Shown here piece by piece: positions 2,173 to 63,152 of a stretch of DNA of 64,000 bases (position 1 is its first letter; each line of letters starts with the position of its first letter). The notes beneath the pieces are model-generated. The model was given only the letters and a program-made list of their open reading frames with translations. It was not told the DNA's origin and made no database searches. This stretch comes from Babesia bigemina (lineage: Eukaryota): positions 2,480,001 through 2,544,000 of the forward strand of contig NC_027218.1 in NCBI RefSeq assembly GCF_000981445.1, read 5' to 3'. The translations under genes were made by a program, and so were the position numbers.

Positions 2173-3004
2173 TCGATATTGCTCAGCAACACTTGAGTTA
2201 TAAACTTAATTTTCAATGCAGCTTTATGATATGGTCTCATTACATTTCCGAGGTTACGCGACTGACAGGGTACCAGTTAACATGTTGTGTAATAATGCTA
2301 TAATCTTTTATTCGTTGTGATTAGCAGGTATCACGTAGTCTGCTTTGTAATTCGATATGTCATTCGACACTAAAGTCAAATTCGTTTGGTACATCCCTTT
2401 GGTATTATATTATGATCACCTCTGTATCGCTGCGGAAGTTTACTAGGCCCAAAAAATTCCGCAATCTGTTGCACTGTTAATGTGAGATCATATTGTTTGT
2501 CAGATGTTGTAAGCGCCTATATTCTACATTGTTTCGGTGATTCCAATCTATTGCATTGGCCCTGTGCTCCCAGATGCTTGTCACATTTAAGCGGTGATTG
2601 TTATAGGCGAGCAATCGATGGCGATTTCCATCACGATGGTGAATCATGTTAAGGCAACAATGCAAATCACAGGCGAAGGTGCGTCATCGTTTCGAGGCCA
2701 GCACCGTGATTTACGGCAGGATGGAGAGCGAAAGCAACAAGAAAAAAATGGTAACCCAAACCAACGCCATTATACTGAAGGTGAGGGGCGTTCACACTTT
2801 ATAGACAATTGTTACATAGCTATTTGGGATCATTTACGCTATGAGAGTCCACTGTAGGGTATCCGTAGAGATGGGAAAATTATGGTCCATTTCTTATACG
2901 GCATGTTCATGATACTTTATTTTTATTATTGTGTTCTCTCATCTTACAGTGTGCTATGTGGCTACGTGAATAGGGCCGGTTTTCGGTTTTAACAGACGAG
3001 TGTT

Positions 3005-3496
3005 TCACGCTGAAACCGGTTGCGGGATCCACGCCGGTCCATTGCCGGACGTCACTGGTGCCATCCATGCGGGCGTCCATCCAGTTTGGGCTTGAGGGTC
3101 TTCGACGGAATCGTAGTCTTCTTTCGGCTTCATATCCCTCATCACTATTTTATGTGTTTCTTGGATCACTACCCTTTGTATGTGGGCTTCCATGCGATCC
3201 GATATGCCCAGGTCCCGTCTGTACTTGCTGTGCTCCTTCGTCACTATTACCTCCCACGTCATAACGTAGGGGATAACCCTGATCTTGGTCTGCTGGTTAA
3301 ACTGTCGCGCCTTGAGGTCCTCTATAAGGTCTTCATACTTCTGCTTCTTGAACTTTTCCGTATCCAATAGGTTGTCTTGATTGGTGATTCCTATCTCCAC
3401 GATGGTGACGGTGTTCCTCCGCCGATCCGCCAGGATTATGTCTGGCCTGTTGTATTCCTCAGTCTTCTGAGTCTTGACCGTCTTGTCGTACGCGAT
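3005..3496 (-). mobile_element. 5'-truncated non-LTR retrotransposon fragment: restriction-like endonuclease (RLE) domain and ORF C-terminus
   Basis: Open frame reads IAYDKTVKTQKTEEYNRPDIILADRRRNTVTIVEIGITNQDNLLDTEKFKKQKYEDL...RVIPYVMTWEVIVTK...LGISDRMEAHIQRVV. This fits the RPD-x12-(D/E)...KxxKY...hPhV signature of R2/R4-type RLE elements. Confidence 0.85.
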
Positions 3497-4147
3497 CTAT
3501 TCCTTATCCCATCATATCGCTTTTTATCATCTTCAACCTTTCCCGCCTGTCCCAGTCTCCCAATTGGCGCCGCTCCCTGTCTCCTCCCATATGTCCTTAC
3601 GTTGCCGCCTCTTCAAACACCCTCCACATTTTCGCCCACACTTTCCTCACCATTTACACCGCCATAGCCTTCAATCAACACCCTTTCCCGCTTCCTCGCC
3701 TCCCCCAACTCACTCCACCTTTCACTTTGTTCTCTTCCTTGCCTCCTTGGTCACTCCCCTCTCCTTCATACACACCCCCTTTCCCGTCTGATTCTTTTCG
3801 TTGGCCTACTTGTCGCTCGGTCATCGTTGCCGCTCAGTCACCTTGCAATTCGCCTGCATCTCTGGTCATACATCCAACATTGCTTATCTTCTGTAACATT
3901 GTGGTTCTTTACCAGAATGGCACGGATGGCGTAAAATTCGCAGCATGCCACATCAAGGCACATCATTTGCGTTATGAACACCCCGATATGCGACACTGTT
4001 GACGCTTCATTTGATCACATTGTGCAATTACTTTTTCTATATGTTGTGTTAACACGACTGGGCACCTGTGGCCGCAACTAAGATCATGAAAATACTAAAC
4101 TACTTTTTATGCGTTGTGAAGCATTATTATACGTGCTATATTCGTAG

Positions 4148-7100
4148 TTATTTAAGCTGGTCTATGAGATCATTGGGATCATCGTCAAAGTAATCGGCGT
4201 CGTAGAGTGAGAGCATCTTCCTGCTATTAGTGAGCAGCGCCTTGACGTCGATGAGGTGGGATGCCTTGGACCTGATGGCATGAGAACAGAGATACAGGAC
4301 GTCCAGGCGGTACAGTATCGTGTATGAGAGGAGGAGTACTGCTACCGACCATAGTGCGATTAGCGTGTAGATGAAGGGCATCCTGACCCTGTAGAGGAAG
4401 TCGTCCATGCAGGTCATGAGCATTGCAATAGGCTTGCCGTCGACCACGGTCCTCAGCTTTACGATTATATCTGAGCATGTGAGTGGCCACTGCAATTTAC
4501 CCTCCGGTGGCATGAACCCGTGTGTGTAGAGGAGAGGCATAGCATAGGGGCATGAGTGGAGTGATGAGCACTTGGTGTTATCATGCCCTTCTAAATCATA
4601 CAACAGTCTTTTGAATGACTTCCACAGTCTGTCTGATAAGAAAACCGCCCAGCTGAGGTAGGTGTGGGTAAAGCACGGAGAATACACAGCGTAGGCCCGG
4701 TGCGTGGTGGGCGACAGAAGTTTTGCGCACTGCGCATTGGTGATGTCGCAGCCCAGCAGTTTGGACAGGGAGCCGGCGTGGTCAACGTTGTGATTGGCGG
4801 AGTCGACGCCCCTGATTCCCCTGATAGCTGGTAACTCGGAATCAACGAAATGGTCCCAGTCGGGACAGTTCTCATGAGGCTTGGTGAGGGCCTTGCCAAG
4901 GTTTGACAATCCCTTGGAGGACGCATCATACATTAAATTGCCGAAATGGTGGAAGTAGGACACCAGCTCCCCGGTGGTGCGCGGCGTCCGCCTGGTGAGG
5001 CAGTTGAGGTAGGAGGACAGTGTCAGCAGTGGGTCGTCGCCGCCGCAGCTGGGAGTGAGGATGGTGGAAAGGGTGGCGCCAGTTTGGTGAGGTTTAGGCA
5101 GATCTTTGTGTTTAAATCCCATGTGTACCCGGGTCTTGCAGCAGATGTTGCAAGGGTCGAAGGGGTGAGTCTCGAAGTCGGAGTCCCAGCCGTCGGTCAG
5201 GAAAGACTGGAGGAGGGAGTTGGAAGAAGATATGTCACTTCCGTAGTTACAATTCTGCCAACCACCAAGGGATTTGTCTTGATTACACTGCGACTTCAGG
5301 AATTGCAACTGGTAGTGGCAGGCATAGGCGTAGTCACGCAGCTGGCAGAGGAGACAGGAGGGGTCGGACGAATAATGCAGCTGACTATATACTGATTTGA
5401 AGTCAACAGTAGAGAAGGCTTTAAAATCATTGTAGTACTTAATCCGTGTGATTATGTTTGCCGAGTAGAGGCACGCCTCTGCAAGGGTATTGGTGACACG
5501 GGAAGCAGTCAGCTGGTTGGGATACCCGGTGACATCGATGGCAAATGAAGGCCACGAGGAGTCTTTATTAATATCATCCAAAACTCCACCAACATGCTTC
5601 TGAATAAAACCAATGTACCCTAATTCGACAACGCCGACCATCCAATAGAGCATTTCACGGACAGTATTGGGAGAAGGCATATTGTCAGAATCTGGGGGAG
5701 AAGTAGTTGAATGGCTGGTAGAGGTGGATGAAGGGTCAACATACCAGGGGTTGAGGCATTGGGGAATATACACCTCACCAGTACCTCCTTCGTTCGGTGA
5801 AACATGAAAATCAAAATGTTCAAACGGCATATCGACATCACGAAGGCCTAATGAGTTCGACAAAACTGAAGCTTCTTGTAACTTATCCAGGTCAGAAGCG
5901 ATATCCGATTGTGGAGATGCCTCTCTAACTGTGCCGCGATGAGTAATAGGACCATTAAGAAGGTTAATACCGTTGGGATCTCGCAACCTCTCAATATGAT
6001 CATTGAGTAACGCATCAGAATGTGTATTGTAGGCATCCTTACCACCTTCCCATGGATGTATTACAACTTCCGTTTCGATATCAGGAATGTCCGTACCACT
6101 ACCCGTAGAAAGGACGCCAGATGCTACAGATGGTGGACCTGAAACACTTGAAGGCTGCGCTAAAACAGCGCTTGCAGCTAGAAGAGGATCTGAACCCAAA
6201 GAAGCATTCTGTAAACCCCCACCTAGCACCCCAGTTTTAGCAGTGGGTTTAGGGCTACCAGGAGGACTGGCGGGAGGGGTTAGAGATGACACTGGCGACG
6301 ATTGAAGTGCAGGCTGAGACGTTTGTATCACCTGTGCATCTGAAACATCAGAAGACGCTGAAACAACCGGACCAGCAGGCCCTAGCTTACCTTGGTCACC
6401 GTTAGACCCCGGTGCGCCTGTACCACCACCTGGACCAAGGCCACCAGATGACGAGGAGCCTGGGCTTGGAGTAATTGTTGAGGATGTAGGTGCAGCTGCT
6501 TGTGGCGGAACTGGCTGTTGAGCTGGAGGACCACTGACCTGCAAGCCCGCACCACCGCCCCCTAGAGCGCCAGCGGGGCCTTGACCTTTGCCATCTTCAG
6601 GAGGAGTGTCTGAATAATTTGCCTCATTCGGAAGTCCAGGATGCTGTACACTTTGATCATTGTTTTGATATGTTAATCCGCCATCATCATCATCATCCTC
6701 TTCTTCATCTTCTTCAGGATCAGACTCAGATTCAGGGTCTGCCGTACTGTCGTGGTTCTGCACTACAGCCGCTTTCTGAGATTGTTTCAGTAGACACTGT
6801 TTACCCTTCAGTATATGTACAAGCTTAGACAGGCCACTATTATGTTCATTGAGGCAACCGATCACAGCTTTCCAATCCGTTTTTAAAACATGCTTCAGAT
6901 TGCTTTCAGTATCAATATTGTGGCCATGAAACGTGAATCCGTAAGGGAAGAAATGCTTCTTCAAATATTCCCCAAGCTGGCCAGGTTGTGTATTGCCGAG
7001 TACATGATCATTCGTCTCAATTTTCTCCAAATTCCCTCGCACTTTATCCAAATTATCTCTTAGCCAAGTCGCCATCTTTTTAGCAAAATGTTTACTGTTT

Positions 7101-7957
7101 AAATCTTCATTTCTAGGCGCCTGGCCGGTGTGGGAAAAGCGGCCATTGGCGAACAACGTGTCTAACTTGGACCTAAGTCCTGAACAATGTTGTTTTAACT
7201 CTTCCCAATCAATACAAACACGGTGAGCTTCCAAATAGTTCTTTAGTTCTTCATTCAGCTCTGTCTCAACAATATCGCAAAATATTTTGAGCAATCTTAG
7301 GGCGTTTGCGGAGTTGGAAGTCTGTGAACCGACAGTGGTCGACACCGATGTAGCGAACACGTCGCGAAAAAGCTGATGTTCCTGTTGATCAAAAAACTTA
7401 TCGAAGTCATTAGCCATTACAGAACCATTGGCATAAGCACCATGCGCAGCATCATTCACCTCACCTTTCTCAAATCCCCCAGGAATGACACCGTATTTGT
7501 TGATGTTTTTTTCAGTGAGATATGCATCAATCTTACTGACACTAGATGTCGACACTATAAACGACCCAATTGGCTCATCCTTCCACCCCCCTCCACCAAT
7601 ATTTTGGAACCTCACATCCACGTTATATTCCAACAAGGACCTCACGGAAAGCAGTTTGGGTATGCTAGCAAGCAAAGTATCAAGCACATCTTTATCTTTT
7701 CTTAATCCATGCTTGTGAGGCTGCTTAGATCTGCATATTTTGCCATAAAAGTGTGACGCTTGGTCGATAAAATTAGAAAGTGCGGATTTAATGTTCTCCA
7801 CGTTGACTTTCTTTGAATAATAATAGTTGATACGCCTCTCCAGTTTCTTTGCCACCTTTTCTTGCTTCTCCTTGTTGACTTCCAACCACTTCAGGAACTC
7901 AAGACACTCCTTGAGTGTTTTGAGCGGAAGAATGGTACTCTTCTTCTGTATGACCAT
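4148..7957 (-). CDS. VESA-like variant surface antigen (ves1b-like type; single exon, C-terminal TM)
   Basis: ~1269-aa ORF from ATG 7957. N-terminal LKTLKECLEFLKWL, low-complexity G/P/S centre, Cys-rich conserved C-terminal block (VREMLYW...GWQNCNYG...LQSFLTD...MGF...TPRTTGELVSYF), TM segment and YRLDVLYL tail typical of ves-family proteins. Confidence 0.85.
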   Translation of the reverse strand: MVIQKKSTILPLKTLKECLEFLKWLEVNKEKQEKVAKKLERRINYYYSKKVNVENIKSALSNFIDQASHFYGKICRSKQPHKHGLRKDKDVLDTLLASIPKLLSVRSLLEYNVDVRFQNIGGGGWKDEPIGSFIVSTSSVSKIDAYLTEKNINKYGVIPGGFEKGEVNDAAHGAYANGSVMANDFDKFFDQQEHQLFRDVFATSVSTTVGSQTSNSANALRLLKIFCDIVETELNEELKNYLEAHRVCIDWEELKQHCSGLRSKLDTLFANGRFSHTGQAPRNEDLNSKHFAKKMATWLRDNLDKVRGNLEKIETNDHVLGNTQPGQLGEYLKKHFFPYGFTFHGHNIDTESNLKHVLKTDWKAVIGCLNEHNSGLSKLVHILKGKQCLLKQSQKAAVVQNHDSTADPESESDPEEDEEEDDDDDGGLTYQNNDQSVQHPGLPNEANYSDTPPEDGKGQGPAGALGGGGAGLQVSGPPAQQPVPPQAAAPTSSTITPSPGSSSSGGLGPGGGTGAPGSNGDQGKLGPAGPVVSASSDVSDAQVIQTSQPALQSSPVSSLTPPASPPGSPKPTAKTGVLGGGLQNASLGSDPLLAASAVLAQPSSVSGPPSVASGVLSTGSGTDIPDIETEVVIHPWEGGKDAYNTHSDALLNDHIERLRDPNGINLLNGPITHRGTVREASPQSDIASDLDKLQEASVLSNSLGLRDVDMPFEHFDFHVSPNEGGTGEVYIPQCLNPWYVDPSSTSTSHSTTSPPDSDNMPSPNTVREMLYWMVGVVELGYIGFIQKHVGGVLDDINKDSSWPSFAIDVTGYPNQLTASRVTNTLAEACLYSANIITRIKYYNDFKAFSTVDFKSVYSQLHYSSDPSCLLCQLRDYAYACHYQLQFLKSQCNQDKSLGGWQNCNYGSDISSSNSLLQSFLTDGWDSDFETHPFDPCNICCKTRVHMGFKHKDLPKPHQTGATLSTILTPSCGGDDPLLTLSSYLNCLTRRTPRTTGELVSYFHHFGNLMYDASSKGLSNLGKALTKPHENCPDWDHFVDSELPAIRGIRGVDSANHNVDHAGSLSKLLGCDITNAQCAKLLSPTTHRAYAVYSPCFTHTYLSWAVFLSDRLWKSFKRLLYDLEGHDNTKCSSLHSCPYAMPLLYTHGFMPPEGKLQWPLTCSDIIVKLRTVVDGKPIAMLMTCMDDFLYRVRMPFIYTLIALWSVAVLLLSYTILYRLDVLYLCSHAIRSKASHLIDVKALLTNSRKMLSLYDADYFDDDPNDLIDQLK

Positions 7958-9135
7958 TTTCAATCAACCGCCAATCCACTCTCGCAGAACTACAGGTTCA
8001 GTGTCCAAGACCACGTCAGCTGTAAACAACTAAACTAATCAAATCCCTACCCTGACCACTCACTACGCCCACTCATAGACAGTATAGCCAGACGGCAAAG
8101 TGGTATGAGCAAAAATGCTGCAATCAGCATCGTCAAACTGAAACCAACCACTACAAATGCCGTAAACGAAGACATTTATATGTTCACTCAACCCTTCAAA
8201 AGACATCGACGAGCACTGAAAACGGGCAAACATCCCACCTACCCGGAGTGTGACAGGCAGCCAACCCAGGAATCCAGAACAACCGGAGTCAAAAAGGCGT
8301 AGCAGCACGTATAACGTACGATAGCTGAAAACATATCTGGATGCAGGATCGAAGAAGGGGTAAGTCTCCTAACCTTTTACCCCGACCCCGCCAACCACTC
8401 TCCCCTCGGTGTTCCGTCACCTTTCGGTCGGCCGACAAAAAAACGTACCGGCAGTGACACGACATCCGCGCGCCTGGCACCACAGAAGAAACGCTTTTTG
8501 ACGAAGAATTAAAATTTTATTTTGGTCGGAGTGTATTCGGTCAACTAGTATTAGAGTTGCTCGGCCGCAACTCCACCCACCGTAAGCCGCATCCCCCAAC
8601 CACGTCCCACCATGGGCCATGATGAAGGTGCGACATCAACTGTTCAAGTAATGTACAGTACGGCATTACGTTGTAATTCATTGCCACGAGGCCGCCTGCG
8701 ATGCCCGGCGGAGACGTCATCCCTCAGACGTCACGCCGGAAAATGTCTCCTCACTGCCTAGCATAGAGATGTCTATGATCTTAACACAATCCACATCATC
8801 ACATACATTATACCCATCTATCTAACTTGTGGGTCAGAGCCTCAGCTGGAGCAGTCATTAATGGGTTACACGGATGGCCGCTCACCCGGCTTCACAATCC
8901 AGTTGCAATAGGATTATGCAACCACGTATTACGAGTAACGCAGACCAAATAGCAATTAACAACGCAATGCATCAACCACACTGTCCACCAATTTGCTGAT
9001 TAGTTATTACATTAGGCGGTGGGTTGTTGGTTAGGTGGCTGGGTGAGCTAGGTGGTGGTATATTTGTAGTTGTGAGTACTGTGAACGTGGTGAACGGCGA
9101 TACAGCAGCGGTTTACATCGCGCACGCAGTTGTGA

Positions 9136-12100
9136 TTAAGCTTGCAGGTACGATATCTTGGCAATTTTGCCGACACGTGCAGCTGCGAGCAGTGACTGGG
9201 CGGCAATTTTGTAGGAGGCTGGCGACCTGAGGTGTGATTTGATGTGGAGCGTGTCTAGACGTCCGATCAAGACGTAGGACAGGTAGAGAAGAGACAGCGA
9301 CCAGAGAGCCACGACTGTCCAGATGAAGGGTTCACGTATTCTGAATAAGAACTCTGGGATGGTTTCGAATACAAATTTGGCAAGCGCACGTTCGAGATGC
9401 ATCTCTTTGTTCAAGACTGTTTCCAATGCGTAACAGAAATCTTTACATGTCCGCTTCGATACGACGTTGTTAACTCCACTTAAATCATACGGACTCCTGA
9501 AAACTAAACCGTATTTAGATAATGTCGGACGAGTGGATGGGCAGTGGGTTATCGATTTGCAATCCTGAGTGTGATGTTTATCAATAAGATCAATAATAGG
9601 CGTTTTAGATGCATAGGCGGATTTGACTGGGCATGTTGCAGCACAGCATTTGACATAGCATTTGTTGCCTTCACCACATGTAGCGATGCATTCATTCAAC
9701 AGTCGATTAAGCAAATTATAAAACGTTTCCGTCAAGTAGACGACCCACGAGAGATAACGTGCGGCATGCTTTTGTGAGAAAACCGTCCATATGTTGTGGC
9801 TAAGAGGTTTGATATATCTACCACACTTAACCTCTGATATATCGCTACAAACAAGAGTGAAGAGATCACCGTTGGTATGGGTTTTGTGATTTCTCGATTT
9901 GAATATGGTAGTGTTGTCAAGGTGACCGTAAAAGCCGAAGGAAGCTTTTCTGACAGCATCCTCAAAAGCGTATTTCTTATGCTTCTTAGCTGCCTCATGG
10001 GCTCCGCTTTTGCCATTCCACTCATTGAGCAGATGGTAGTAAAAAGCAAACATCTCGTCAAGGGTCTGCGGCGGCCTATTCAAAAGACAAATCAACAAAC
10101 TGCAAATTTTACTAAGACATGAATCTTTCCCGCCACAGAAATCAGCAAGGACAGTGCACAAATACCGACCACTCTGCCTATGCGATGCTGTAGTGGCAAT
10201 ATCTGAGAACCCCATTGGCGTTTTACACGGTATTCCTCTGTGGTTGGGTACAGTGCACTCCAGCTTGCAACCGGGTTTCTCGAATTGGTGCGGAAGGAAG
10301 CCTGGCAGTCCGTCTTCTAAGAAGGATTGCAAAGGTGACTTAAGGCCGCACTTTGGATGTTGCCTGCACGTTTGGTTACACGTTGGATTACACGGTTGGT
10401 CAGGGCATTGTAACTCGTTGCATTTCCATGACGAACCGCCTATTGCATTTCCATACCAGCAATGACGCCAGCCGCTTACCTCCGTAGTGTCGCAGCATTG
10501 ATTATATAAGAAATTCAATTGATGATACACCCTGTACAATACATCTACTAGCATGTCAAAGCAGGCGCTGGCAGAGTTAGGATACTGTAGTTTATATTCG
10601 TTGGTGTTATAGTCGCAAGCGTAGACACCGTCCGAGTGGCCATGACCAACGATGGCTGTGAGGACTGAGTGGGACTTTGAACATACGTCACCAAGTGCCG
10701 ATGTTAGTTGTGAAACTTTTATAGTTTCTGGATACGCTGCGAATGACACGTTGTCAACATAGGCCAAAGAGATAACGGTTCCTCTAACATCCACGTTTTG
10801 TTCCTCTGGCTTATCAAATAGCTCATCGAAGCTGCTGAATGTTAATTCGTGGTATACGGGATTATGTGGTAGGCCACTCAGCCATATCAGCATATCATAG
10901 ATATTACAAGGCAACTTCTTTGACCCTGAAGTGGCAAAGTGACATACGCGATAGTAATCGTGAAGATATCCGAGGAGCTTTCTAAGGACACCATGATCTG
11001 GTAGATTTGTCGTCTTTACTCTCACTTCACCGTCTACCTTTATTTCTTCCTTCTCGTCATCGTCGCTGACAAGTTTATATTGTGCATCACCTATACCATG
11101 TTTATTGGTTAGGAGATCATCGTGGATATTCTGGCCCCTGAAATCGTTCATGTAGCGCAGCTCACCATTTTGTTTGTTTTCTTCAGAAACAACATATCCG
11201 CAACGTGCTAAAAAGGCGCCAAGTGGATTTTCTACGGTTCCATTTCTCGCACATACGGTTTTGTATTTGTATTCATTGCCCTGGTTACACTTAATCCGCA
11301 AGTCATTAAAATCGTTAAACAGCATCTCCAGTATGGTAATGCAAACCTTGGCGCCATGTTTTCCGTCAGTAGTCAACTTGTTTTTGCCATCCACCCACTG
11401 ACTTATGGGTTCGGCCCCATCGTACACTGACACATACGCCTTGTCCAGCTCCCCATGCATATCTGTGATTCCTTGCTTGAGGTACTCTAGCAATGGATTA
11501 TTCTGGTGGGCATACGATTTGGAATTCATTTCGGTTAGCAGACTGTTAAGCGCAGTTAAGCCAGCAACAAATTTTCTGTTGTATTTAGTGAGTCCAGTGA
11601 ATAAAGGGTGTAATTTGTTTTGCAGTTTGGAAAGATAATCCGGAGGCATTATTTTAGACCGCGTGTTCAGAGTTTTAGGCAGTTCAGTGAAAAACGTTTT
11701 GGCTCTGCGAGACAGTGTCTGCAGTGTCGCGTATTCATCCAACACAGTATTTAACCCACTGTCTCTTAATTTATCTTGCATTACTCTCATGAAGCCTTTA
11801 ACACCCTTATCGGCGTCTGCGGTGATTTCATTTGGGAGCGGTGCGATTGCCGTGCTGACTTTGTCAGCGAAAGCTGTGAGCTGCGCTTTGATCAATTGTA
11901 CATACCTGGTTTTGATGTCGTCGGTAATGGTGTCTCGAGCTCCATCAATTGTGGTAGTAACCAGGTGTTGAAGTACTTGGATTGTATTTTTCTTTTCTTG
12001 TTCAGCGTGGCTTAGAAACTCCGTTGTCTCCCTGATGGAATCCTTCAAATCACCTCTAAGAATGGCGTCAATATCATTGTGTATTTTCCTTAGTACCCCC

Positions 12101-14355
12101 TCAGCAAGTGTACCTTTTGCCGTTTTGCCCATCTTCTTTTTTAGCTCTAATAATTTGCCTTTTGCACTTACTTCGCCACCCTCAGCATAGATCTTAACAA
12201 TTTCGCAGAGTTTATGAAGGTTTGTTTTAACTTCTTCGGCTTTGTTGTCGATCATGGACTGCGTCTCTTGGGCGGCGATCACAATGTCACCATTCAACAT
12301 CTCTATGGTCTTAAAATCACTTGATACAATTTCCATGACCGCACTATGAAGGTTTGCTGCACCTGTAATCGCAGCGGCCTGTAGGAGTTGGCCGAGTTCT
12401 CTGTTTACGGCTGTTATCTTTTCCTGCATTGATGCTTTCAATGTATGGTAAATGTCAGAAATATGTTTTCTTGCATTCCAGCCTTTTTTGGCTTCGTAAA
12501 GGTGCTTTAACACCTTTTCTATATTATTGCCAAGGCCACCGTCATCCTTGTCCAATTTCGCCGTCTCAAGCAGCGTTCCCAAATTTCCCAACTTATTCTT
12601 CAATTCATATTCTCCCACGTTATCAACAAGCACATCAAGAGCAGGGGTACTATCAGCATTAACAGTAATACCCTTTTGCTCTGCCACACCAGCTGCCAAG
12701 GCATCATTCAAAGTGTCCAAATAATTACTAAAGTTCTCTTTAATTTTTCTTATGAGTGGATCGATGCTATTGGACACATCCCAGTTACCATTATCATCTC
12801 TCCACGTCTCCAAATCGTCCGGTTCATTCACCTTGGTTTGAGCATCACTAAGCTTTTTCACCACACATGTATCGTCTTCACCATCTCCCTCTTTTCCTTT
12901 AATAATCGTAAATACATTATTATACTTATCTTTTAACTCCGTGAATTTCTCATGCAGCGTCAATCCATGTCCCTTAATATACTCTGCGGCTGCTTTAACC
13001 TCTTCTTTACATTTAGCAGGATTGTCAACTTCCTCTAATATTCTATCAACCTTGCTTTCAGCCTCTCTGACAATGGCATCTGCCTCCATAATCCATAAGT
13101 CTAGATCGTTAACATACTGCTGTACATTTTTTTCGATCCTCTTAAGCAACTGCAAAATGCTCTGCACTCTCCTTATCAAATCGTCGAGCAGCTTATTTAT
13201 ATCACTCCGGATTCGTTCCTTGATTTGATCTCTAGCATCTTCAAGCTGTTTCTCAACATGTTTAATAACGCCATCCCTATCGCTCTTCTGATGCTTATGA
13301 ATTGAACTCAACCACGCAGCATGTTCTTTAACTAGGTTCTTAGCGTTCTCAATTTGTATTTTCAATTCCGGGCTTAAGTCTTTGATATCCTTATCTGCCT
13401 TAAGCATGTCAATAAAAAATTCTGAAATAGGCTTTTTACACTCCGTCTCACGTATCTTATCTACGGCCTCTACTGCTTCTTGAATTTTTTCTGAACTATG
13501 AACAAGCGGCCTGCCCAACTCATTTTTTCCCGGTAAAATTTTGTTTAGAGCATCTTTTGAATACGATTTCATCTGACCACTTAATGTCGTAATGACGAGA
13601 GTAATTTTCTCATTAGACGCCTTCACTTCCCTATTGTAGTTCCTGACACCATCCACCACCGCATTAATTGCCTTATTAAAACTGTCTTTACTACCATGTA
13701 TATTAGCTGTAATAAACCTAATAGCTTCATCAATTTGCCCGTTATGTTGCCCTAAATTCCCTTGAATATTGCTGAGAACACCGTGAAAGAACGCCATCAC
13801 CGCATCGCACAGCCTGTCAAGGTCTGAGTAGACAATGCCCTGGCCAGTGTAGCCTTTGGAGTCAGAGGAGAAGCCGAGGAAAGTTTCGAGGCCATCACAT
13901 AAATTTGTCAGAAGTTCTTTGCAATTCTTTTCAACAGTGATGCCTTTAAGACTCTCATTAAGACTTTTAAGCTGCTCCAACTTGGACTGAATCTCATCAT
14001 AGGCTTTCTGTTGGGAGGAATCCAGGTGTCCTTTATAGCAATTTTTAATACCTTCAGACTTAGATTTAAGTTCTTCAAAACTTCTTGGGGCATTATTTTT
14101 GGAATCGTTAAATCCTTCAATTTCAGTTACTTTTTCCTTACAACAGGTGTAAGACTTGGCAGAATGGAGAAGCTTGAGAAGCGCATCAAAATTTGTAGTA
14201 TACGCCTTCTCAATAGCCTCCTCAATCAACTTTTTCAAAGCTTTGGCCAACTCATCAAGACCATTCTTGTCACCATTCCCATGCCTAACCTGGATCAACC
14301 AGTCGATGGCCTCCCGGAGGTTTTCCGGGCAGTCAGTGAGATTCTTTGGCGCCAT
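9136..14355 (-). CDS. VESA1-like variant erythrocyte surface antigen (ves1a-like type)
   Basis: 1739-aa ORF from MAPKNLTDCPENLREAIDWL. Contains GYTGQGIVYSDLDRLCD, a long helical centre, SPLQSFLEDGLPGF, PPQTLDEMFAFY, a C-terminal TM and RLDTLHIKSHLRSPASYKIAAQSLL, all VESA1 hallmarks. Confidence 0.9.
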   Translation of the reverse strand: MAPKNLTDCPENLREAIDWLIQVRHGNGDKNGLDELAKALKKLIEEAIEKAYTTNFDALLKLLHSAKSYTCCKEKVTEIEGFNDSKNNAPRSFEELKSKSEGIKNCYKGHLDSSQQKAYDEIQSKLEQLKSLNESLKGITVEKNCKELLTNLCDGLETFLGFSSDSKGYTGQGIVYSDLDRLCDAVMAFFHGVLSNIQGNLGQHNGQIDEAIRFITANIHGSKDSFNKAINAVVDGVRNYNREVKASNEKITLVITTLSGQMKSYSKDALNKILPGKNELGRPLVHSSEKIQEAVEAVDKIRETECKKPISEFFIDMLKADKDIKDLSPELKIQIENAKNLVKEHAAWLSSIHKHQKSDRDGVIKHVEKQLEDARDQIKERIRSDINKLLDDLIRRVQSILQLLKRIEKNVQQYVNDLDLWIMEADAIVREAESKVDRILEEVDNPAKCKEEVKAAAEYIKGHGLTLHEKFTELKDKYNNVFTIIKGKEGDGEDDTCVVKKLSDAQTKVNEPDDLETWRDDNGNWDVSNSIDPLIRKIKENFSNYLDTLNDALAAGVAEQKGITVNADSTPALDVLVDNVGEYELKNKLGNLGTLLETAKLDKDDGGLGNNIEKVLKHLYEAKKGWNARKHISDIYHTLKASMQEKITAVNRELGQLLQAAAITGAANLHSAVMEIVSSDFKTIEMLNGDIVIAAQETQSMIDNKAEEVKTNLHKLCEIVKIYAEGGEVSAKGKLLELKKKMGKTAKGTLAEGVLRKIHNDIDAILRGDLKDSIRETTEFLSHAEQEKKNTIQVLQHLVTTTIDGARDTITDDIKTRYVQLIKAQLTAFADKVSTAIAPLPNEITADADKGVKGFMRVMQDKLRDSGLNTVLDEYATLQTLSRRAKTFFTELPKTLNTRSKIMPPDYLSKLQNKLHPLFTGLTKYNRKFVAGLTALNSLLTEMNSKSYAHQNNPLLEYLKQGITDMHGELDKAYVSVYDGAEPISQWVDGKNKLTTDGKHGAKVCITILEMLFNDFNDLRIKCNQGNEYKYKTVCARNGTVENPLGAFLARCGYVVSEENKQNGELRYMNDFRGQNIHDDLLTNKHGIGDAQYKLVSDDDEKEEIKVDGEVRVKTTNLPDHGVLRKLLGYLHDYYRVCHFATSGSKKLPCNIYDMLIWLSGLPHNPVYHELTFSSFDELFDKPEEQNVDVRGTVISLAYVDNVSFAAYPETIKVSQLTSALGDVCSKSHSVLTAIVGHGHSDGVYACDYNTNEYKLQYPNSASACFDMLVDVLYRVYHQLNFLYNQCCDTTEVSGWRHCWYGNAIGGSSWKCNELQCPDQPCNPTCNQTCRQHPKCGLKSPLQSFLEDGLPGFLPHQFEKPGCKLECTVPNHRGIPCKTPMGFSDIATTASHRQSGRYLCTVLADFCGGKDSCLSKICSLLICLLNRPPQTLDEMFAFYYHLLNEWNGKSGAHEAAKKHKKYAFEDAVRKASFGFYGHLDNTTIFKSRNHKTHTNGDLFTLVCSDISEVKCGRYIKPLSHNIWTVFSQKHAARYLSWVVYLTETFYNLLNRLLNECIATCGEGNKCYVKCCAATCPVKSAYASKTPIIDLIDKHHTQDCKSITHCPSTRPTLSKYGLVFRSPYDLSGVNNVVSKRTCKDFCYALETVLNKEMHLERALAKFVFETIPEFLFRIREPFIWTVVALWSLSLLYLSYVLIGRLDTLHIKSHLRSPASYKIAAQSLLAAARVGKIAKISYLQA

Positions 14356-14409
14356 CGTGCTGAAGCGAAAGTTCAATGTATGCGCAACTTCAATATGCCC
14401 ACCAGCGCT

Positions 14410-14615
14410 TCGAGGCTGCAAACCTCCACTCCACTGCGAAAATGCGATAAGCACTGGACAGCTAGCAAACTCTTCTCTCAGTGCTCCAAACTACATTACT
14501 CAAGCGCCTCCTCGATTAAGGGCGTATTTGAATATCACGACCAAACTAGCATCCACCTCGCTCACCGTTTCCTAACCGCCAGTATTCAGACTGCTCCAAA
14601 TTCTAGTCCCCTTCG
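14410..14615 (-). promoter_or_regulatory. Conserved ves1a-like upstream region / 5'UTR with probable intron acceptor
   Basis: Reverse complement aligns by eye with 57995-58200 upstream of the other ves1a-like gene (shared taatgtagtt...gtcca.tgc.tatc.cattttcgcag.ggag...tttgcagcc). Confidence 0.6.
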
Positions 14616-16546
14616 GAGGTGGCGTGAAACCTCCAAATCGCATTTAATCTTCAAAGATGCAACGCAATAGTTGAATCCTGTACGACGTGCTTATTAATAT
14701 TCGCATCGGTTTCTCTCCAACTCCTTTGCAATTACTGCCCTGCCCCACCACCTCAATCTACCAGCAATATTGTGGCCAAAGTTTTCCCGAAATGTGAGAG
14801 GGAATAAACTATGACTGTTGTGAATGAGACATGGTATAACTGAGCATGTAAAGTGGTAATGGAAATTATGCTCCCTCTGGAGCCTCCGCAAGACATGGAC
14901 GAATCGATCCGTTATCGATGAGAAGGCGATATTAATATGTCGTATACCAAATCTAACCATGAATATGACTGAAGGTGGACTCAGATAAGAAACAATAGTC
15001 TTGATTAAGAATAGTGAGGAGTAGGCAGATTACCATGATAACGATGCATTGCGTAGGAACTCAAGACTGAAGGGACTACTCCATCTCATCCGCCAATTCG
15101 ACTCATGTAAGATCGGTGGAAGAACAGAAGCACCGTCTCGATATCCTGATCGCCACCCAATAGGACCTAGTGGAAAGGGAAAGTCACGGAATTGAGGCAT
15201 GAATATCTAATACAGAAACCGAAAGCGCTACCATTCAACTTGTAGACGAGTATTAGGCTAATTTACAACAAAGTGAGAGCTTGAAGACCGGATGAGGGCA
15301 TGACGCGTCGATTACACTCCTGCCCATACACGAAGGACATCACCGAGCACTGTCTGCAATACTGTGATGTGGAATTCTCAACATACATCGATACGGTTTA
15401 GGTGGTGAAGTATGAATAGGCACAGAAAGCAGCGCCATACGAACGTAGCCACACGCCTAACCCTGGAAAACTTGAAACTAACCTAATCTCATTTTTTATT
15501 AAAGCGGTTGCCATGTCTACAGCCTTTTTATGTAACAGCACTCACTCATGTGCCTAAGTGACAACATCGCAAAGGCAGTGACTGAAGATGTATCACATGT
15601 GTTTGCTCTGTGTGTTGAACCACCGGAATGAGGATGTCACCATGTCACTTATATATGATATCATAGTTTACGAAACCAATAATGTTCTTCACACGCAATA
15701 GAGGCGACATAAGACAGTTATTAATCTGTCTTACCACATAGACCAATGTTATCGAGCAACTGCCTTTTAGGTGCCAGGCCACCTTGGAACATGAGGGTTG
15801 ATTTACTCATGGTCTACTTAATCCCTTCACCATATGCATAAAGCATAATATCGGATGTTATACCAAGCCACCGCTGGTTATATTGATATTACAGAGGTGC
15901 CACATTACAAGTACAACCAGACTCAGTCATAGCTCACAGCTTGATGGGATGGGCAATCACGCAAGAACCATACTATGAATGCCATTATGACACTTAGATG
16001 CTGGAAATGGACAAAACAATGGGCGTTGATAAACTAAGTTTGACACCCTTCAGCTCCACACTGGCCGAGACCCCGTTGTAAATGGTATGTGAAGCAGAAA
16101 TTAGGAAAGCGTGGATCCGTGTAAACACCACTAATTCACCAAGGAGGCGTCTTATATACGTGGTTACACGTTAACAAATAGATTTCGGTGGTAAGCTGAA
16201 GCGAGGGGTGGACGTCACTACTCCACTCCCACGTGAGCCAGTAACGGATAGGGCCGTTAGAAATATATTATTGCCTGTATGAAACTAACATGCCGCATTG
16301 ATAACTAATATGATGCATTACTGCGTGGTTACGTTTAGAACCTCAAAGACATTTGTCCAGTGATCTGTGGGGAAAGGCAATAAGCATACATGTAAATCTC
16401 ATGGGAATAGTATCTATACTGCAACAGACCCGGCTGTGATATCCAGGGCGATGCGTTGCATGACGGCCACCCGGTTGGGTGCGGGTCTCCGATGGGAGAA
16501 AGAGTAGTGGCATCAGTGTTCGCCGCTGAGGTGCGTGTTCATGAGT

Positions 16547-16762
16547 AGTTGGTGAGTGCGTTGCTTAAGTGATTGATATGCTTGCAGGTTGAGGGGACTG
16601 GTAGCGGCAGTGGTACGTGTTGCAGTTGGTGAGTGCGTTGTTTAAGTGATTGATATGCTTGCAGGTTGAGGGGACTGGTAGCGGCAGTGGTACGTGTTGC
16701 AGTTGGTGAGTGCGTTGCTCAGGTGACTGATATGTTTGCAGGTTGAGGGGACTGGGAGCGGA
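16547..16762 (+). repeat. Tandem ~2.8x 77-bp repeat containing a 5'UTR intron unit
   Basis: gtgagtgcgttg... starts at 16552, 16629 and 16706; each unit contains ...gatatg(c/t)ttgcag followed by gttgaggggactgg. Confidence 0.9.
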
Positions 16763-16764
16763 AG

Positions 16765-17309
16765 ATGTCGACAGGGTCTCCTTGTTTATGTGCTACGAGT
16801 TGTCCACGGTACAGTTGTATTTGTTGTCCGTGGTGCTGTGATAAATGTGATGGTAGAAGCAGTTGTAATGGATGTTTCGGATATACCTTCATACGCCAAA
16901 AAGACAGAGATCCAACTTACAAATGCGAGACTTTCGGTTGTAAAACAAAATGTGCAGGCAAGGAGTATAAATGTGGATGTAAATGTTGTAGAGCGAAATG
17001 TGCAAGTGGAGAGCGGCCTGGCACCTGCAGTGCCCCCGCTCCACAGCTTTCCCTTACTTCCACCGGTCTTCAGTCTCAGTCCGAGAGTCAAGAGCTACCA
17101 TCTCTTCCCGAAGCTCAGACCCAAGAAAACAATTCTCAATCTGCCTCCACACCTTTCCGCCCTGCCCCCCAGCCATCGCCGCCGTCATCGTTGCCATCAT
17201 CGTCGCCATCATCCTGCTCGACCTGTGCATCTTCCGCTTCCCGGTGGGCCGCAACATCCGCGATTTCCTCGTACGCAAGATACCGTTCTGCATCGCGTTC
17301 TGCAGCTGA
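16765..17309 (+). pseudogene. Small Cys-rich single-TM protein (family copy 1), 1-bp frameshift at ~17170
   Basis: The Cys-rich CCPWCC domain is in one frame and the TM/tail (AAVIVAIIVAIILLDLCIFRFPVGRNIRDFLVRKIPFCIAF) is in another. The shift is next to a C6 run, judged against the intact paralog at 63153. Confidence 0.75.
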
Positions 17310-17922
17310 ACTCAGCAATTTGTTAGCGCAATTTTCGTAATCCACATCCCACAGATCACCTAACTGGCAACTGACATTTAATGTTGTAGGCAGAGTAATG
17401 TTTGCACCGATGACCAAGCACCTGACCAATTCCATAAGCAACGTGGTTACCTAGCACCTGACCTAAGTGGTGACCAAGAGACTGACCTTGTGACTGCCCT
17501 ACCGTATGAGCTATGTGTTCAAGGCTCAACCAAAAGTCTGCCAAAATATTTTATCCCCACTGCAAACCACCATGTATAACAGCATCCTCCTACCTTACTC
17601 CACCCCCTCACTCCAGCATGGCTGCCTTGGATTGTTGCCTCCCCTCCTCAGGTGGGTGGTGTGTCTATAGGATTCGTGTGATGGTTCATGGATTTTGCAA
17701 AACGGCATAGGTGTGTCATTGTTTTGATATGATGCGTATTGGTGTTATTCAGCGTCTTACTTCATAGCCTTTCCACCCAGCGCACTTAGTTGTCTGCCAA
17801 GCTGTGTTAAGCGGAGTCACCTTGGAAGTGTGGTCACTCTAGTGTCTCCCAGTTCACATAGTCCTGGAGGCTAGCCGTGGAGTTTTGTAAGAGTGGATTA
17901 GAGGTGATTGGAAGTGGGCCGG

Positions 17923-50514: not shown

Positions 50515-51416
50515 ATGGCGTTAGTCGATGAAGCGCATCTGCTCATCTGCTTTTCAGGCTCTCTCCGAACGTATTCTGGGCACAGACAAAGGACGCGGTC
50601 TACATGACCGTCGAAGTCGAGCACAACAAGGACACACACATCGACATCAAGGATGAGGCCCTGGCCATCAAGGCGAAGAAGGACGGCAAGGACTACGAAT
50701 GCGTCATCAACTTCTACAAGCCCATCAAGTCCTCAGAGGTCATGAAGGCCGACGAACGCTTCCTCAGGTTCAAGCTCCCCAAGGCTGATGAGGAGAAGTG
50801 GCCAACGCTGAACAACGACGGCAAGAAGCACTGGCTCAAAATCGACTGGGACCGCTGGGTCGACTCTGACGCCGAGGACGACGACGCTGCCAGGGACAAC
50901 TTCGACATGGGTAACTTCGGGAACTTCGGCGACTTCGCGGGCATGAACCCCGGCGCCTTCGACGACGACGATGATGACTACATGGGCGACGACAGCGACT
51001 TCGACAAGAAGGGCGATTGCTGCAGCATCGGCGACTGCGCTTGCGACAAGTGCGAGTGCGGCTCGGTCTGCAAATGCAGTGCCAAGTGCAAGTGCGAGGC
51101 GTGCCCCTGCGAAGTCGACTGTGACTGCGACGCCGAGTGCATGAACGCCAGCGGCTGCTGCAGCAAGGGTGACTGCGCGTGCGACAAGTGCGAGTGCGGT
51201 TCGATTTGCAAGTGCGGTACCAGCTGCAGCTGCGGCGACTGCCCGTGCGACGCCGAATGTGACTGCGGCGCCAAATGCCTGACCACCGGCGGCTGCTGCG
51301 GCAAGGCCGAGTCTGACCGCAAGTGCTGCGAAAACTGCACCTGCGGTAGCGACTGCGCTTGCACCCCCGAGAACATGTGCGCAGCCAACTGCAAGTGTGG
51401 CGTTGCTTCGGCCTGA
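50515..51416 (+). CDS. p23/Sba1 Hsp90 co-chaperone (CS domain) with a metallothionein-like Cys-rich C-terminus
   Basis: SPNVFWAQTKDAVYMTV, WPTL and WLKIDWDRWVDSD are p23 motifs; intron 50520-50557; 41 Cys in the last ~132 aa. Confidence 0.9.
51018..51300 (+). repeat. 138-bp (46-aa) tandem Cys-rich coding repeat, 2 copies plus a divergent third start
   Basis: tgctgc unit starts at 51018, 51156 and 51294; Cys spacing is identical in the first two units. Confidence 0.9.
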
Positions 51417-56765: not shown

Positions 56766-58251
56766 TCGGACTTATTCTAAAAATTCTTTATTAGGGATTC
56801 ATTGGGTTATAGTATTAGGGGGCGAGTTGTCGGGTGAATGTTGCTTTGTGCTCGTTGTGTCTTGGGTGCCGCAATTATTTGCTGGCGTGTAATGCAAATA
56901 ATATAGTGAGATGCATCAAGGCCTTGCCGTTAGTGGTGAGTTGCTGTGAATTGATTAGCTACGTCTGGCGTGGACGAATATAGCTGTTATTGGCGTGCAC
57001 TTCACAATGACAACGTGCAATTATTGCTAGTTGTGCGGGAGTGGGTCGAGAATACTCACTGAACGAACTAATCGCGTATCCGTCTCTGCCACTGACGCCG
57101 ACACAACGCACGATGCATTAGGCTGTGTTTCAGGTCGACCGCAGTAGTGTGGGTGACTAAGTACGACATAACACTTTTGTATTGCATTTCAATCACGCGA
57201 ACATCTCCTATTGTAGGCTGCGGGTCCCACCTCGTGCTGTTGCCGAACGTCACTAGTGTCATCCATTATTGAAACCATCCTGTCTGGGTGGGCGGTTACT
57301 TACAAAGTTGTATTGTTCTCTGCTATCTATGCTATTCGTCACATAAGGCAGCGACTTGAAAATTGTCTGATAGTCAAATAACCTTCCTCTGTTATCCTTA
57401 GCCAAGTCACTGCTTCCTCCTCTTGCACTTCTCCGTCTCCATTAGGTTGTCCTTGTCTGTGATCCTACTTTTCCACCATTGTTAGTGTATTCTTCCTCTT
57501 ATTAGAGACCGCTGTGCTTGGGCGGTTATGTTCCTCGGCCTCGTACGTTGACCTACATAATCCCTTGTTTCAATGGGCAAACACCTGGTCAATCATATTC
57601 TCAACTCATTCGGTCACCATTCATCCGAGTCCATTGCCGCCATTTTTTATCATCACAATTTATGTGTGCTGTCGTTGCGTCATGTTCGAAAACATCGCGC
57701 ATTGAAGGTTTAATCCCTTAGGAAGGCTGCGCTGTGAATTATGTGTTGCTACTACATATACCAGAGCTTTATACCATGCAGCGGTTCACACGATTCCTGG
57801 CCGATAGTCCCACTATTGTGTAATGAATATGGTCTCCATTATATGGGCGGATTTGGTGCTAGTGGGTCTCATCTGTTATTGCTACGGAGCGTGAGAGGAC
57901 TCGCTTTGAACCTTACAGCGCGGGTTGCATTACATTTTGCTATTACTTCGTGTCGTATAATAATGTAATGTATAAGGTAGGCATATGTTAGCATCCAGAG
58001 TGGATTAGAATTTCAAGCTGTTTGTACAGTGCAGATTTCGAAGCAGAGATAGACAATGCTTGTTTTGCCTTGAAATAGATATACAGCTTATATATGGTAC
58101 CGCCATAATTAATGTAGTTGGGGACGCTGTGAAAAGTACACGCCAGCCGTCCACTGCGTATCACATTTTCGCAGCGGAGCCGGGGATTTGCAGCCCCGAT
58201 TTGCTCGTCGGTTGTTTTTAGATGCGAATGAGGTGTTCTCACATATCTAAA

Positions 58252-62486: not shown

Positions 62487-63152
62487 CCCATAGTTCTGTC
62501 GACACGTTGAGATATTCTCACTTTGTCATGTTTAGTTGCGCGTTACTTGTGAGACGTGTCTACGTCATCCTGCCCACCCAGTGCAATGTGAAGCTGTGTT
62601 GTTGGCCATCAAGGTAGGCGATTGGCGATGGTCGTAGTCGGTTAGATGCTACGTTGTTGCGGAGCTACTAGTTGCAATGTCGGTAATGTGCGACACTACG
62701 CAGTGGATGCCGTTGGCATTTTTCGTGGTCAGTAGACGGCGTAGTTATGAGAGGGATGGTAACAGCGTAAATGACAAGCAGATTAACCAAACACTATGCC
62801 TATTTCACGGACTCATGATGAAACAAATATTATCGCATTTATGGGCGGCGGCAACGTTGTACGGTCCGTGATGGATGTAAGTGCCTGTGCAATTGTGATG
62901 ACATTTGACCCGCATGCCACCGACAGGATACTGTCAACATGCGGTAACTAAGCGATACTTTAATGATAATAGCTGCACAACTGTGATTTAATTGACGGTG
63001 CTTTGGATGGCGGTCACCGGCTTGGTGATGGAGCCGATGGGAGACGGCCAGTATCCGAGACTGAGGTAAGCGGTTCATGAGAGGTTGGTGAGTGCGTTGC
63101 TTGAGTGATTGATATGTCTGCAGGTTGAGGGGACTGGGAGGGAGAGGGGAAG

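What the first reader, a model, noticed from the sequence alone, without database searches (positions are those of the whole stretch)
3005..3496. RLE-type non-LTR retrotransposon remnant at the edge of a ves cluster
Seen: extending the listed ORF upstream to the stop at 3497-3499 gives D..VKT.....NRPDIILADRRRNTVTIVEIGIT...KKQKYEDL...VIPYVMTW...EAHIQ. Established: this is the PD-(D/E)xK restriction-like endonuclease at the C-terminus of R2/R4/NeSL/CRE-type elements, and piroplasm genomes are generally described as lacking transposons. From memory (unverified), the EIGIT..D.L / IPYVMTW variant resembles elements in microsporidian genomes. Inference: the RT and CCHC knuckle are missing while the 3' end is retained, as expected for a 5'-truncated TPRT insertion. 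The frame is still open, so a recent or active family may exist elsewhere in the genome, possibly horizontally acquired and associated with variant-antigen loci.
Basis: partly seen in the sequence, partly recalled or inferred. Interest (0 to 1): 0.92.

Follow-up and report, generated by a model that had tools for sequence, protein, structure and literature searches.

The report
Microsporidia-like LINE fragment in Babesia
This is the broken-off tail of a real jumping gene in a cattle blood parasite; such elements were already reported in this species in 2022, but intact, nearly identical copies show it likely spread recently, and its closest named relatives are in microsporidian parasites, so it was probably acquired by horizontal transfer.

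Summary
Observation confirmed. The 163-aa frame at 3496-3008(-) is 96% identical to the C-terminus of a 1347-aa Babesia bigemina RT-CCHC-RLE protein, and its predicted fold best matches the R2 endonuclease. The remnant spans 2923-3497 (575 bp, about 12% of the element), ends in AATAATAA and has no target-site duplication. A decayed second copy lies at about 57150-57550 beside another ves-like gene. The premise that piroplasms lack transposons is outdated: LINE-like elements in B. bigemina, B. ovata, B. divergens and T. equi were reported in 2022 (PMC9141347), without RT phylogeny or origin. Not found in print: at least 8 annotated full-length ORFs 1-4 aa apart, with blood-stage RNA reads on family members; and a tree placing Babesia elements (100/100) in a 100/99 clade with Vairimorpha and Hamiltosporidium elements (41-46% identity over 540-660 columns). 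Nesting inside microsporidia was not statistically established (AU p 0.16 and 0.08). The open frame alone does not show recency (50-76% expected by chance). The ves association is indirect. Junctions were not validated by reads.

The parts
2923..3497 (-). 5'-truncated copy (575 bp) of an RLE-type non-LTR retrotransposon
   Evidence: A 4608-nt contig of run X1 matches 2933-3497 (30 other letters) and carries on past 3497 with element sequence reading ...ESEVHGKYGW, as in P0016 1175-1184; run X4 shows the same loose end. Five contigs of run X3 stop matching at 2923 with flanks that disagree (agreement 0.49).
3005..3496 (-). Open frame, 163 aa: restriction-like endonuclease (about aa 12-126) plus C-terminal tail; stop at 3007-3005
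   Evidence: 96% identical to P0016 1185-1347; fold matches R2Bm 989-1107 and R2Tg 1267-1389. An annotated 85-aa product from the internal Met (P0042) lacks the catalytic residues.
3347..3442 (-). Predicted catalytic triad D19 (3442-3440), E34 (3397-3395), K50 (3349-3347); K53 is invariant in 50 relatives
   Evidence: Nearly invariant in alignment A1; positions. K50 lies on helix 40-53, like R2Bm K1026 with D996/D1009 (PMC10499050). Activity is inferred, not shown.
2923..3004 (-). 3' UTR, 82 nt, ending ACAATAATAA; 14 bp at 2991-3004 differ from all other copies laid
   Evidence: No stable RNA fold in this copy (z -0.64).
3497..3500 (-). 5' truncation junction (uncertain by about 3 bp; the upstream stop codon sits at the junction)
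   Evidence: Loose ends at 3497 in runs X1 and X4; no TSD longer than 4 bp.
57153..57548 (-). Second, older decayed 3' fragment of the same family (about 67-75% DNA identity, frameshifts, internal deletion), about 700 bp upstream of a ves1-like gene
   Evidence: tblastn and blastn hits; local alignment score 160 versus maximum 90 in 100 shuffles.
4148..7963 (-). Neighbouring ves-like gene (context, not part of the element); its 3' end is 650 bp from the insertion
   Evidence: Homologous to the 9136-14490 ORF (26% over about 480 aa, E 1e-41) and to 18153-23033 ORFs. The 'ves' label is recalled from the start and C-terminal motifs; Pfam VESA1_N was not hit.

Best explanation
This is the last 575 bases of a Babesia LINE retrotransposon whose full-length relatives encode one 1347-residue reverse transcriptase-CCHC-endonuclease protein; the copy is likely a dead, 5'-truncated product of target-primed reverse transcription, from a family that likely spread recently and probably entered Babesia by horizontal transfer. 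Shown: identity to the full-length ORF, both boundaries, the endonuclease fold and motif, near-identical intact ORFs, different flanks at the 3' end, and RNA reads on family members in a published table. Inferred from R2 biochemistry: the element's protein binds its own RNA 3' end, the endonuclease nicks AT-rich DNA, the nick primes reverse transcription from the AATAATAA end, and synthesis stopped after about 575 nt. That left a copy with no promoter, start codon, RT or zinc knuckle, so it cannot move by itself and has no function. Insertion is not site-specific. Copies likely persist at the borders of ves and other gene-poor variable regions because selection against insertions is weak there. 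Origin (inferred, about 0.7 for transfer of any kind; about 0.5 for a microsporidian donor): one transfer into an ancestor of B. bigemina, B. ovata, B. caballi and B. divergens, plausibly inside a tick.
For: Identity: (RVT_1 E 5e-30; QGDSLS 774, YIDD 818, CCHC 1119, RPD-x14-E-x15-K 1201). Boundaries. Recent spread: four 1347-aa variants differ by 1-4 residues and carry at least 8 GenBank accessions, some on chromosome-size contigs. Against the X1 copy, 14 listed ORF differences are 8 synonymous and 6 non-synonymous (dN/dS 0.20, binomial P 0.0035), so source lineages were under purifying selection. Expression: in PMC9806345 supplement 1, five family members have 23-640 reads per blood-stage sample versus 0-26 in kinetes, including full-length CDR71823 (23/35/31 versus 0/0/0). 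Origin: Babesia rows form one clade (100/100) inside a 100/99 clade with Vairimorpha and Hamiltosporidium rows; the same clade recurs with outgroups (99). Path length is Babesia-V. apis 1.65, versus up to 1.15 within Babesia and 2.3-2.7 for V. apis-Dictyocoela. The element scores 0.89 bits per residue against V. apis, more than ribosomal eS6 scores against four microsporidian eS6 chains (0.40-0.80, organisms of those PDB entries recalled). No other alveolate is named among the 120 rows listed.
Against: No TSD, so TPRT truncation is not distinguished from later deletion. AU tests did not reject a tree with all microsporidian rows together against Babesia plus outgroups (p 0.162 with 24 rows; p 0.081 with 36 rows). 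74 of the 120 rows have no organism, and 9 are animal-labelled. The mite-clade elements really sit in animal DNA (L006 is flanked by an animal-type eRF1), so an arthropod donor is open. The Babesia stem is long (0.57-0.69). Near-identical ORFs on small unplaced contigs could be assembly duplicates. RNA counts on repeats can be multi-mapped or read-through. 3 of the 6 ids asked, 6 of 6 and 4 of 6 were either absent from the table or not verified family members. Microsporidian eS6 evolves fast, which weakens the calibration.
Confidence: 0.8

Rival explanations
1. Same element, but the donor was an arthropod (tick or mite) or another unsampled host, and microsporidia and Babesia each took it from arthropods.
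For: Elements of the same lineage are embedded in mite-type animal DNA (L006, L007, L011). A Polistes-labelled row lies in the 17-row clade with Babesia. Atlas neighbours are mostly arthropod-labelled (few members with taxa). Microsporidia exchange TEs with metazoans (PMC4202319).
Against: No tick protein is named among the listed hits. Mite rows are further away (34-37% identity) than Vairimorpha and Hamiltosporidium rows (41-46%). The deepest named rows of the lineage are microsporidian.
Confidence: 0.25
2. The family was inherited vertically from an early eukaryotic RLE lineage and lost in most apicomplexans; the similarity to microsporidian elements reflects sparse sampling.
For: AU tests do not reject Babesia as sister to the whole microsporidian and mite lineage. 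PMC9141347 finds gain and loss scenarios equally parsimonious and reports a LINE in T. equi. Utopia shows that RLE lineages can span supergroups (PMC4640811).
Against: The element is only about 1.5-1.7 times further from V. apis than Babesia copies are from each other, and is closer to V. apis than V. apis is to Dictyocoela. It is more conserved across this gap than eS6. No T. equi or other alveolate protein appears among the listed hits.
Confidence: 0.2
3. The copy was inserted full-length and lost its 5' part later by deletion or ves-region recombination, rather than by premature end of reverse transcription.
For: No TSD; a 14-bp block of the 3' UTR is replaced relative to other copies; ves regions coincide with rearrangement breakpoints (PMC4066756).
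Against: Both remnants in the window keep the 3' end, the polarity expected from TPRT. The copy is only about 3% diverged, which leaves little time for a deletion. The junction is clean with no upstream element traces.
Confidence: 0.2
4. The fragment is a domesticated host nuclease or small protein acting on ves loci.
For: The frame is open, the triad is intact, an 85-aa gene model exists (P0042), and dN/dS against X1 is 0.2.
Against: There is no start codon before the catalytic residues, and the annotated product lacks them. An open frame is expected by chance. The non-synonymous changes include a conserved G83 to V. The 3' UTR and tail are retained as in a mobile copy.
Confidence: 0.03
5. 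The sequence is contamination or a chimeric join of microsporidian DNA.
For: No contig laid spans either junction; LINE ORFs of this lineage do contaminate bacterial genome bins.
Against: The family is in four Babesia species as a single clade, is fused into host gene models, has a decayed paralogue in this window, and is held by contigs of other runs.
Confidence: 0.02

Closest known systems
Babesia 'LINE-like' TEs of Rodriguez and Makalowski 2022 (PMC9141347; models Bova_19, Bdiv_22, probably api_194)
   Same: Same hosts (B. bigemina 133,787 nt, B. ovata, B. divergens), RT-bearing, absent from B. bovis; almost certainly this family. Model sequences were not seen, so identity was not checked by alignment.
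   Different: In the text and tables read, that paper gives only 'LINE-like' (MGEScan 'R2' for three B. divergens copies), with no domain anatomy, ends, activity, RT phylogeny or donor.
R2 retrotransposons (R2Bm, R2Tg; PDB 8gh6, 8ibw, 9dou, 9nl2)
   Same: Single ORF; RT, CCHC knuckle, then a C-terminal PD-(D/E)xK endonuclease with the lysine on a helix; best fold match.
   Different: No N-terminal C2H2 zinc finger; not in 28S rDNA; many different flanks; 13-19% identity in the endonuclease.
Unclassified LINEs of microsporidia (Vairimorpha, Hamiltosporidium, Enteropsectra, Dictyocoela and others) and of mites
   Same: Alignable from the N-terminal RMPRGGW helix bundle to the end of the RLE; 41-46% identity to Vairimorpha and Hamiltosporidium, 32-37% to the rest. 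One relative (L001) ends in a similar ACAATAATAATAA.
   Different: The Babesia ORF is about 200 aa longer at the N-terminus (1347 versus about 1145 aa), has its own C-terminal tail, and sits on a long stem branch.
R4/Dong clade (Dong, Rex6, R4, EhLINE1)
   Same: RLE; TAA-like 3' end; lack of N-terminal zinc fingers with a Myb-like bundle (this clade trait is recalled). Dong and Rex6 insert in TAA repeats and EhLINEs are dispersed (PMC1635306).
   Different: Flanks here are not TAA microsatellites. No named R4/Dong sequence was available for the tree, so clade membership is not shown.

Membership tests
RLE-type non-LTR retrotransposon | Single long ORF with non-LTR reverse transcriptase | tested here: met
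   In full-length relative P0016 (96% identical over the shared part): RVT_1 E 5e-30, QGDSLS, YIDD; profile hits R2 first (E 1e-40). Absent from the window copy itself.
RLE-type non-LTR retrotransposon | CCHC knuckle between RT and endonuclease | tested here: met
   C-x2-C-x8-H-x4-C at 1119 in P0016, matching CX2-3CX7-8HX4C of PMC5678591. Truncated away in the window copy.
RLE-type non-LTR retrotransposon | C-terminal PD-(D/E)xK restriction-like endonuclease | tested here: met
   Window peptide: D19/E34/K50 conserved; R2 chains are the top fold matches, Z 8.3 and 7.9, next viral cap-snatching nucleases at 6.5.
RLE-type non-LTR retrotransposon | Interspersed multicopy with defined 3' end and no LTRs | tested here: met
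   Five contigs end at 2923 with unlike flanks; annotated copies on at least three chromosomes; second copy in window. The 5' end of the full element was not seen, so LTR absence rests on protein type.
RLE-type non-LTR retrotransposon | Target-site duplication | tested here: inconclusive
   Only 4-bp AATA/ATAA matches at this copy; other copies' flanks could not be paired.
RLE-type non-LTR retrotransposon | N-terminal Myb-type DNA-binding domain | tested here: inconclusive
   P0016 243-326 is predicted as four helices (pLDDT 85). Atlas best hit Myb_Rap1 0.81 is a lead only. Foldseek found no match. VIA lists GT-1 trihelix, BEN and homeodomains at Z 4-5, below unrelated rows.
RLE-type non-LTR retrotransposon | Target-primed reverse transcription activity | not testable with these tools
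   Needs biochemistry.
R2 clade | N-terminal C2H2 zinc finger(s) | tested here: not met
   No C2H2 pattern in P0016 1-560.
R2 clade | Insertion in 28S rRNA genes | tested here: not met
   No rRNA in the window; flanks vary.
R4/Dong clade | RT phylogeny with named R4, Dong, Rex6, EhLINE | not testable with these tools
   No named reference sequence came up.
R4/Dong clade | TAA-repeat 3' end or target | tested here: inconclusive
   Ends ACAATAATAA, but two contigs end 10 bp earlier with another AT-rich sequence, and flanks are not microsatellites.
NeSL, CRE, HERO clades | RT phylogeny and spliced-leader or snRNA targets | not tested
   No references on hand; the dispersed flanks argue against strict targeting.

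The most novel reading that the evidence does not exclude
A LINE jumped from microsporidia into the ancestor of Babesia sensu stricto, across eukaryotic supergroups, and is still active in B. bigemina. It concentrates at ves loci, and its reverse transcriptase supplies the retro-insertion activity behind lineage-specific ves1b insertions. PMC4066756 reports 28 unexplained ves1b insertions on chromosome 3 and cites a retrotranscription origin for ves1-alpha. Component odds: horizontal origin 0.7, microsporidian donor 0.5, very recent or ongoing activity 0.75, real enrichment at ves loci 0.6, role in moving ves genes 0.1.
Probability: 0.08. Interest if true: 0.88.

Novelty: new member of a known kind. 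Interest (0 to 1): 0.5.

Why it matters
Apicomplexans are nearly free of transposons, and a recently mobile autonomous LINE in one of them has not been characterised in the papers searched. Horizontal transfer of a non-LTR element between microsporidia (Opisthokonta) and an alveolate would be a rare cross-supergroup case and would point to the tick as a meeting place. Practically, the element corrupts ves gene models in B. bigemina, B. ovata and B. caballi annotations, offers insertion polymorphisms as strain markers, and is a candidate source of reverse transcriptase and of dispersed homology for rearrangements at variant-antigen loci. The fragment itself is an ordinary dead copy.

Tried and rejected
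No whole genome is held for this window, so copy number and ves enrichment could not be counted directly. Pfam gave no significant hit for the peptide. Sequence search of PDB matched only the RT, not the RLE. No RNA holder was listed for 2600-3900. No contig laid spans either junction or an empty site; run X6 laid nothing. No TSD over 4 bp. The 3' UTR has no significant fold. The N-terminal bundle has no Foldseek match and no clear VIA match. AU tests failed to reject microsporidian monophyly against Babesia plus outgroups; an earlier version without outgroups was uninformative. The purine-rich flank 3498-3900 shows no element homology. Literature: searches found no paper linking the Babesia LINE to microsporidia. 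PMC13465657 concerns BovB and L1 matches in B. bigemina, a different matter. PMC5660447, PMC3505731 and PMC4066756 have no 'reverse transcriptase' in the main text. Subscription papers, Repbase and Dfam are outside the library. The scan's earlier findings held nothing on this sequence or genome. Rejected: open frame as proof of recency; contamination; R2 membership.

Full report
Observation. The minus-strand frame 3496-3008 is open for 163 codons and contains the quoted motifs. Pfam does not recognise it. Of 14 short homologues, 10 are Babesia proteins, 1 is Vairimorpha necatrix and 3 are unnamed. Of 11 longer ones, 7 are Babesia. The best is B. bigemina P0016, 1347 aa; the window peptide equals its residues 1185-1347 at 157/163. 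The host is therefore B. bigemina by inference. P0016 has RVT_1 (E 5e-30), QGDSLS, YIDD, a CCHC knuckle and RPD-x14-E-x15-K. A model of the window peptide (pLDDT 82) has R2 proteins as top fold matches: Foldseek ranks 1-3 and 5, though E is only about 2e-3, and VIA Z 8.3 and 7.9, ahead of viral PD-(D/E)xK nucleases at 6.5. D19 aligns in register with R2Bm D996, and K50 lies on a helix like R2Bm K1026 (PMC10499050, passages).

Boundaries. A 4608-nt contig of run X1 matches 2933-3497 and continues past 3497 with the sequence that precedes the peptide in P0016; X4 shows the same end. The copy is thus cut at 3497/3498. Five contigs of X3 stop at 2923 with flanks that disagree, and others end at 2929-2933. 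The remnant is 575 bp, about 12% of a 4.6-kb element, with an 82-nt 3' UTR ending ACAATAATAA and no TSD over 4 bp. A second, decayed 3' fragment lies at about 57150-57550 (score 160 versus maximum 90 in 100 shuffles).

Age and activity. Of 30 differences to the X1 copy, 28 were listed. The 14 in the ORF are 8 synonymous and 6 non-synonymous (dN/dS 0.20). With 6-14 random changes the frame stays open 52-76% of the time, so openness says little. Stronger evidence comes from the family. The P0016 cluster has 10 members; four are 1347 aa, differ by 1-4 residues and carry at least 8 GenBank accessions. Some lie on small unplaced contigs and may be duplicates. In supplement 1 of PMC9806345 (rows found by search; section 14 part 1 read), five members have reads in blood stages: CDR71823 23/35/31, CDR97475 182/203/175, CDR96503 268/224/277, CDR71814 477/476/502 and CDR94894 632/550/640, against 0-26 in kinetes. 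Eleven other ids asked for were absent from the table. Multi-mapping and read-through were not excluded.

What is already in print. PMC9141347 (parts 1-3 of 5 read, plus supplement rows and Table S4) reports LINE-like TEs in B. bigemina (0.97% of the genome), B. ovata, B. divergens and T. equi, and none in B. bovis. It weighs one gain with losses against two gains, without a donor. PMC10463595 (passages) notes an RT-motif gene cluster in B. caballi. The premise that piroplasms lack transposons is therefore outdated. Ten searches (listed under Tried and rejected) found no paper giving the RLE anatomy, activity or a microsporidian link. The library lacks most subscription journals and Repbase.

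Relatives and origin. A search with the B. ovata copy gave 132 hits, 120 listed. Counted by eye, 14 are Babesia (four species), 21 microsporidian, 9 animal-labelled, 2 bacterial bins and 74 without organism; none is another alveolate or a tick. Trees used P0016 560-1310 and subsets of rows chosen for coverage and speed (74, 35, 40, 24 and 36 rows). In the careful tree (35 rows, LG+C20), Babesia is one clade (100/100) inside a 100/99 clade with Vairimorpha, Hamiltosporidium, one Polistes-labelled row and unnamed rows; Enteropsectra plus mites and Dictyocoela lie outside. With distant unnamed RLE elements as outgroups, the same 17-row clade has 99 and Dictyocoela branches first. In the 24-row tree the corresponding clade includes an Octopus-labelled row (98). 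Against this, AU tests did not reject holding all microsporidian rows together against Babesia plus outgroups (p 0.162 and 0.081). Distances favour transfer regardless of nesting: within Babesia 0.24-1.15, Babesia-V. apis 1.65, V. apis-Dictyocoela 2.3-2.7; identity to P0016 is 52-56% for B. caballi, B. divergens and the second B. ovata lineage, and 41-46% for Vairimorpha and Hamiltosporidium. Per residue, the element scores 0.89 bits against V. apis, while the window's ribosomal eS6 scores 0.40-0.80 against four chains that I recall as microsporidian and 1.2 against mammalian ones. Microsporidian proteins evolve fast, so this control is soft. The mite clade is real animal DNA (L006 beside an animal-type eRF1; L007 identical to a Dermatophagoides row), so an arthropod donor remains possible. 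Microsporidia exchange TEs with animals (PMC4202319, passages) and occur in ticks (PMC8760655 and PMC11305020, search listing only).

ves association. Both remnants in the window are within 0.7 kb of ves-like genes, but ves-rich zones fill nearly half the window (my estimate), so 2 of 2 is weak. The ves label is recalled; Pfam VESA1_N was not hit, though the ORFs are homologous to each other. Of 74 family gene models, 10 have a non-element stretch of 60 aa or more. Three of these match the window's ves-like ORFs (P0033, P0046, P0277) and a fourth has VESA1_N (P0020); one is a myb-like gene. For six chromosomal B. bigemina copies, 9 of 12 immediate neighbours are missing from the expressed-gene table against a base rate near 25% (binomial about 5e-4). 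Five of the six have housekeeping genes within five gene numbers on one side. This fits residence at the edges of silent variable regions, but missing does not mean ves, and tolerance explains it as well as targeting.

Mechanism. By analogy with R2 (PMC10499050, PMC5678591, passages), the full-length protein would bind its RNA 3' end, nick DNA with the RLE and prime reverse transcription; early termination would give this 3'-only copy, which lacks promoter, start, RT and knuckle. Class membership is met for RT, CCHC, RLE and dispersal. R2 membership is not met (no C2H2 finger, no rDNA site). R4/Dong is the likely clade from recalled traits (no zinc finger, Myb-like bundle, TAA-like end; PMC1635306 and PMC4640811, passages) but could not be tested by phylogeny, and the Myb fold was inconclusive.

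Verdict. A real, ordinary dead fragment of a family already noted in 2022. The value lies in the family: probably recently active, transcribed, and probably horizontally acquired from a lineage best represented in microsporidia. Interest 0.5; new member of a known kind.

Noticed in passing
window 57153-57548 (-): Older decayed 3' fragment of the same LINE between the rpL18 gene and a ves1-like gene.
   Followed up: yes
window 2991-3004: A 14-bp block just after the stop codon differs completely from all other copies laid while keeping the same length; it occurs nowhere else in the window. Cause unexplained.
   Followed up: partly
window 24119-24412 (-): Weak similarity (39-44%, E 3e-7 to 2e-4) to the C-terminal extension of B. 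ovata element model P0019; possibly another repeat that flanks elements or ves clusters.
   Followed up: partly
window 3498-3900: Strongly purine-rich on the minus strand (GC skew -0.58 on plus) with no element homology; origin unknown.
   Followed up: partly
window 2839-2873: A 35-bp stretch shared with two contigs of run X3 that have other flanks on both sides; possibly a small dispersed repeat.
   Followed up: no
window 56154-56232 (+): C/D-box snoRNA snoR20 (RF01596, 51.7 bits) just upstream of the last rpL18 exon.
   Followed up: no
P0071 (B. ovata) and BBBOND_0200510/0200530 (B. bigemina): In B. ovata an element piece is fused to a myb-like gene model; in B. bigemina a copy lies two genes from a myb-like gene. 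Possibly a shared old insertion or hot spot.
   Followed up: no
L006 9602-13246, L007, L011: Elements of the same lineage sit in mite-type animal DNA and branch with an Enteropsectra element, suggesting a separate microsporidia-mite transfer.
   Followed up: partly
P0091, P0108, P0207, P0208, P0335: LINE ORFs of this lineage are filed under bacterial genome bins (Paraclostridium, Riesia, Simkania, Bacilli); likely eukaryotic contamination of those bins.
   Followed up: no
P0019 versus P0046 (B. ovata): B. ovata carries two deep lineages of the element (path length 1.15), as far apart as any two Babesia species.
   Followed up: partly
window 16547-16764 and 51018-51306: Short tandem duplications; 16449-17509 is also paralogous to 62996-63905.
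   Followed up: no
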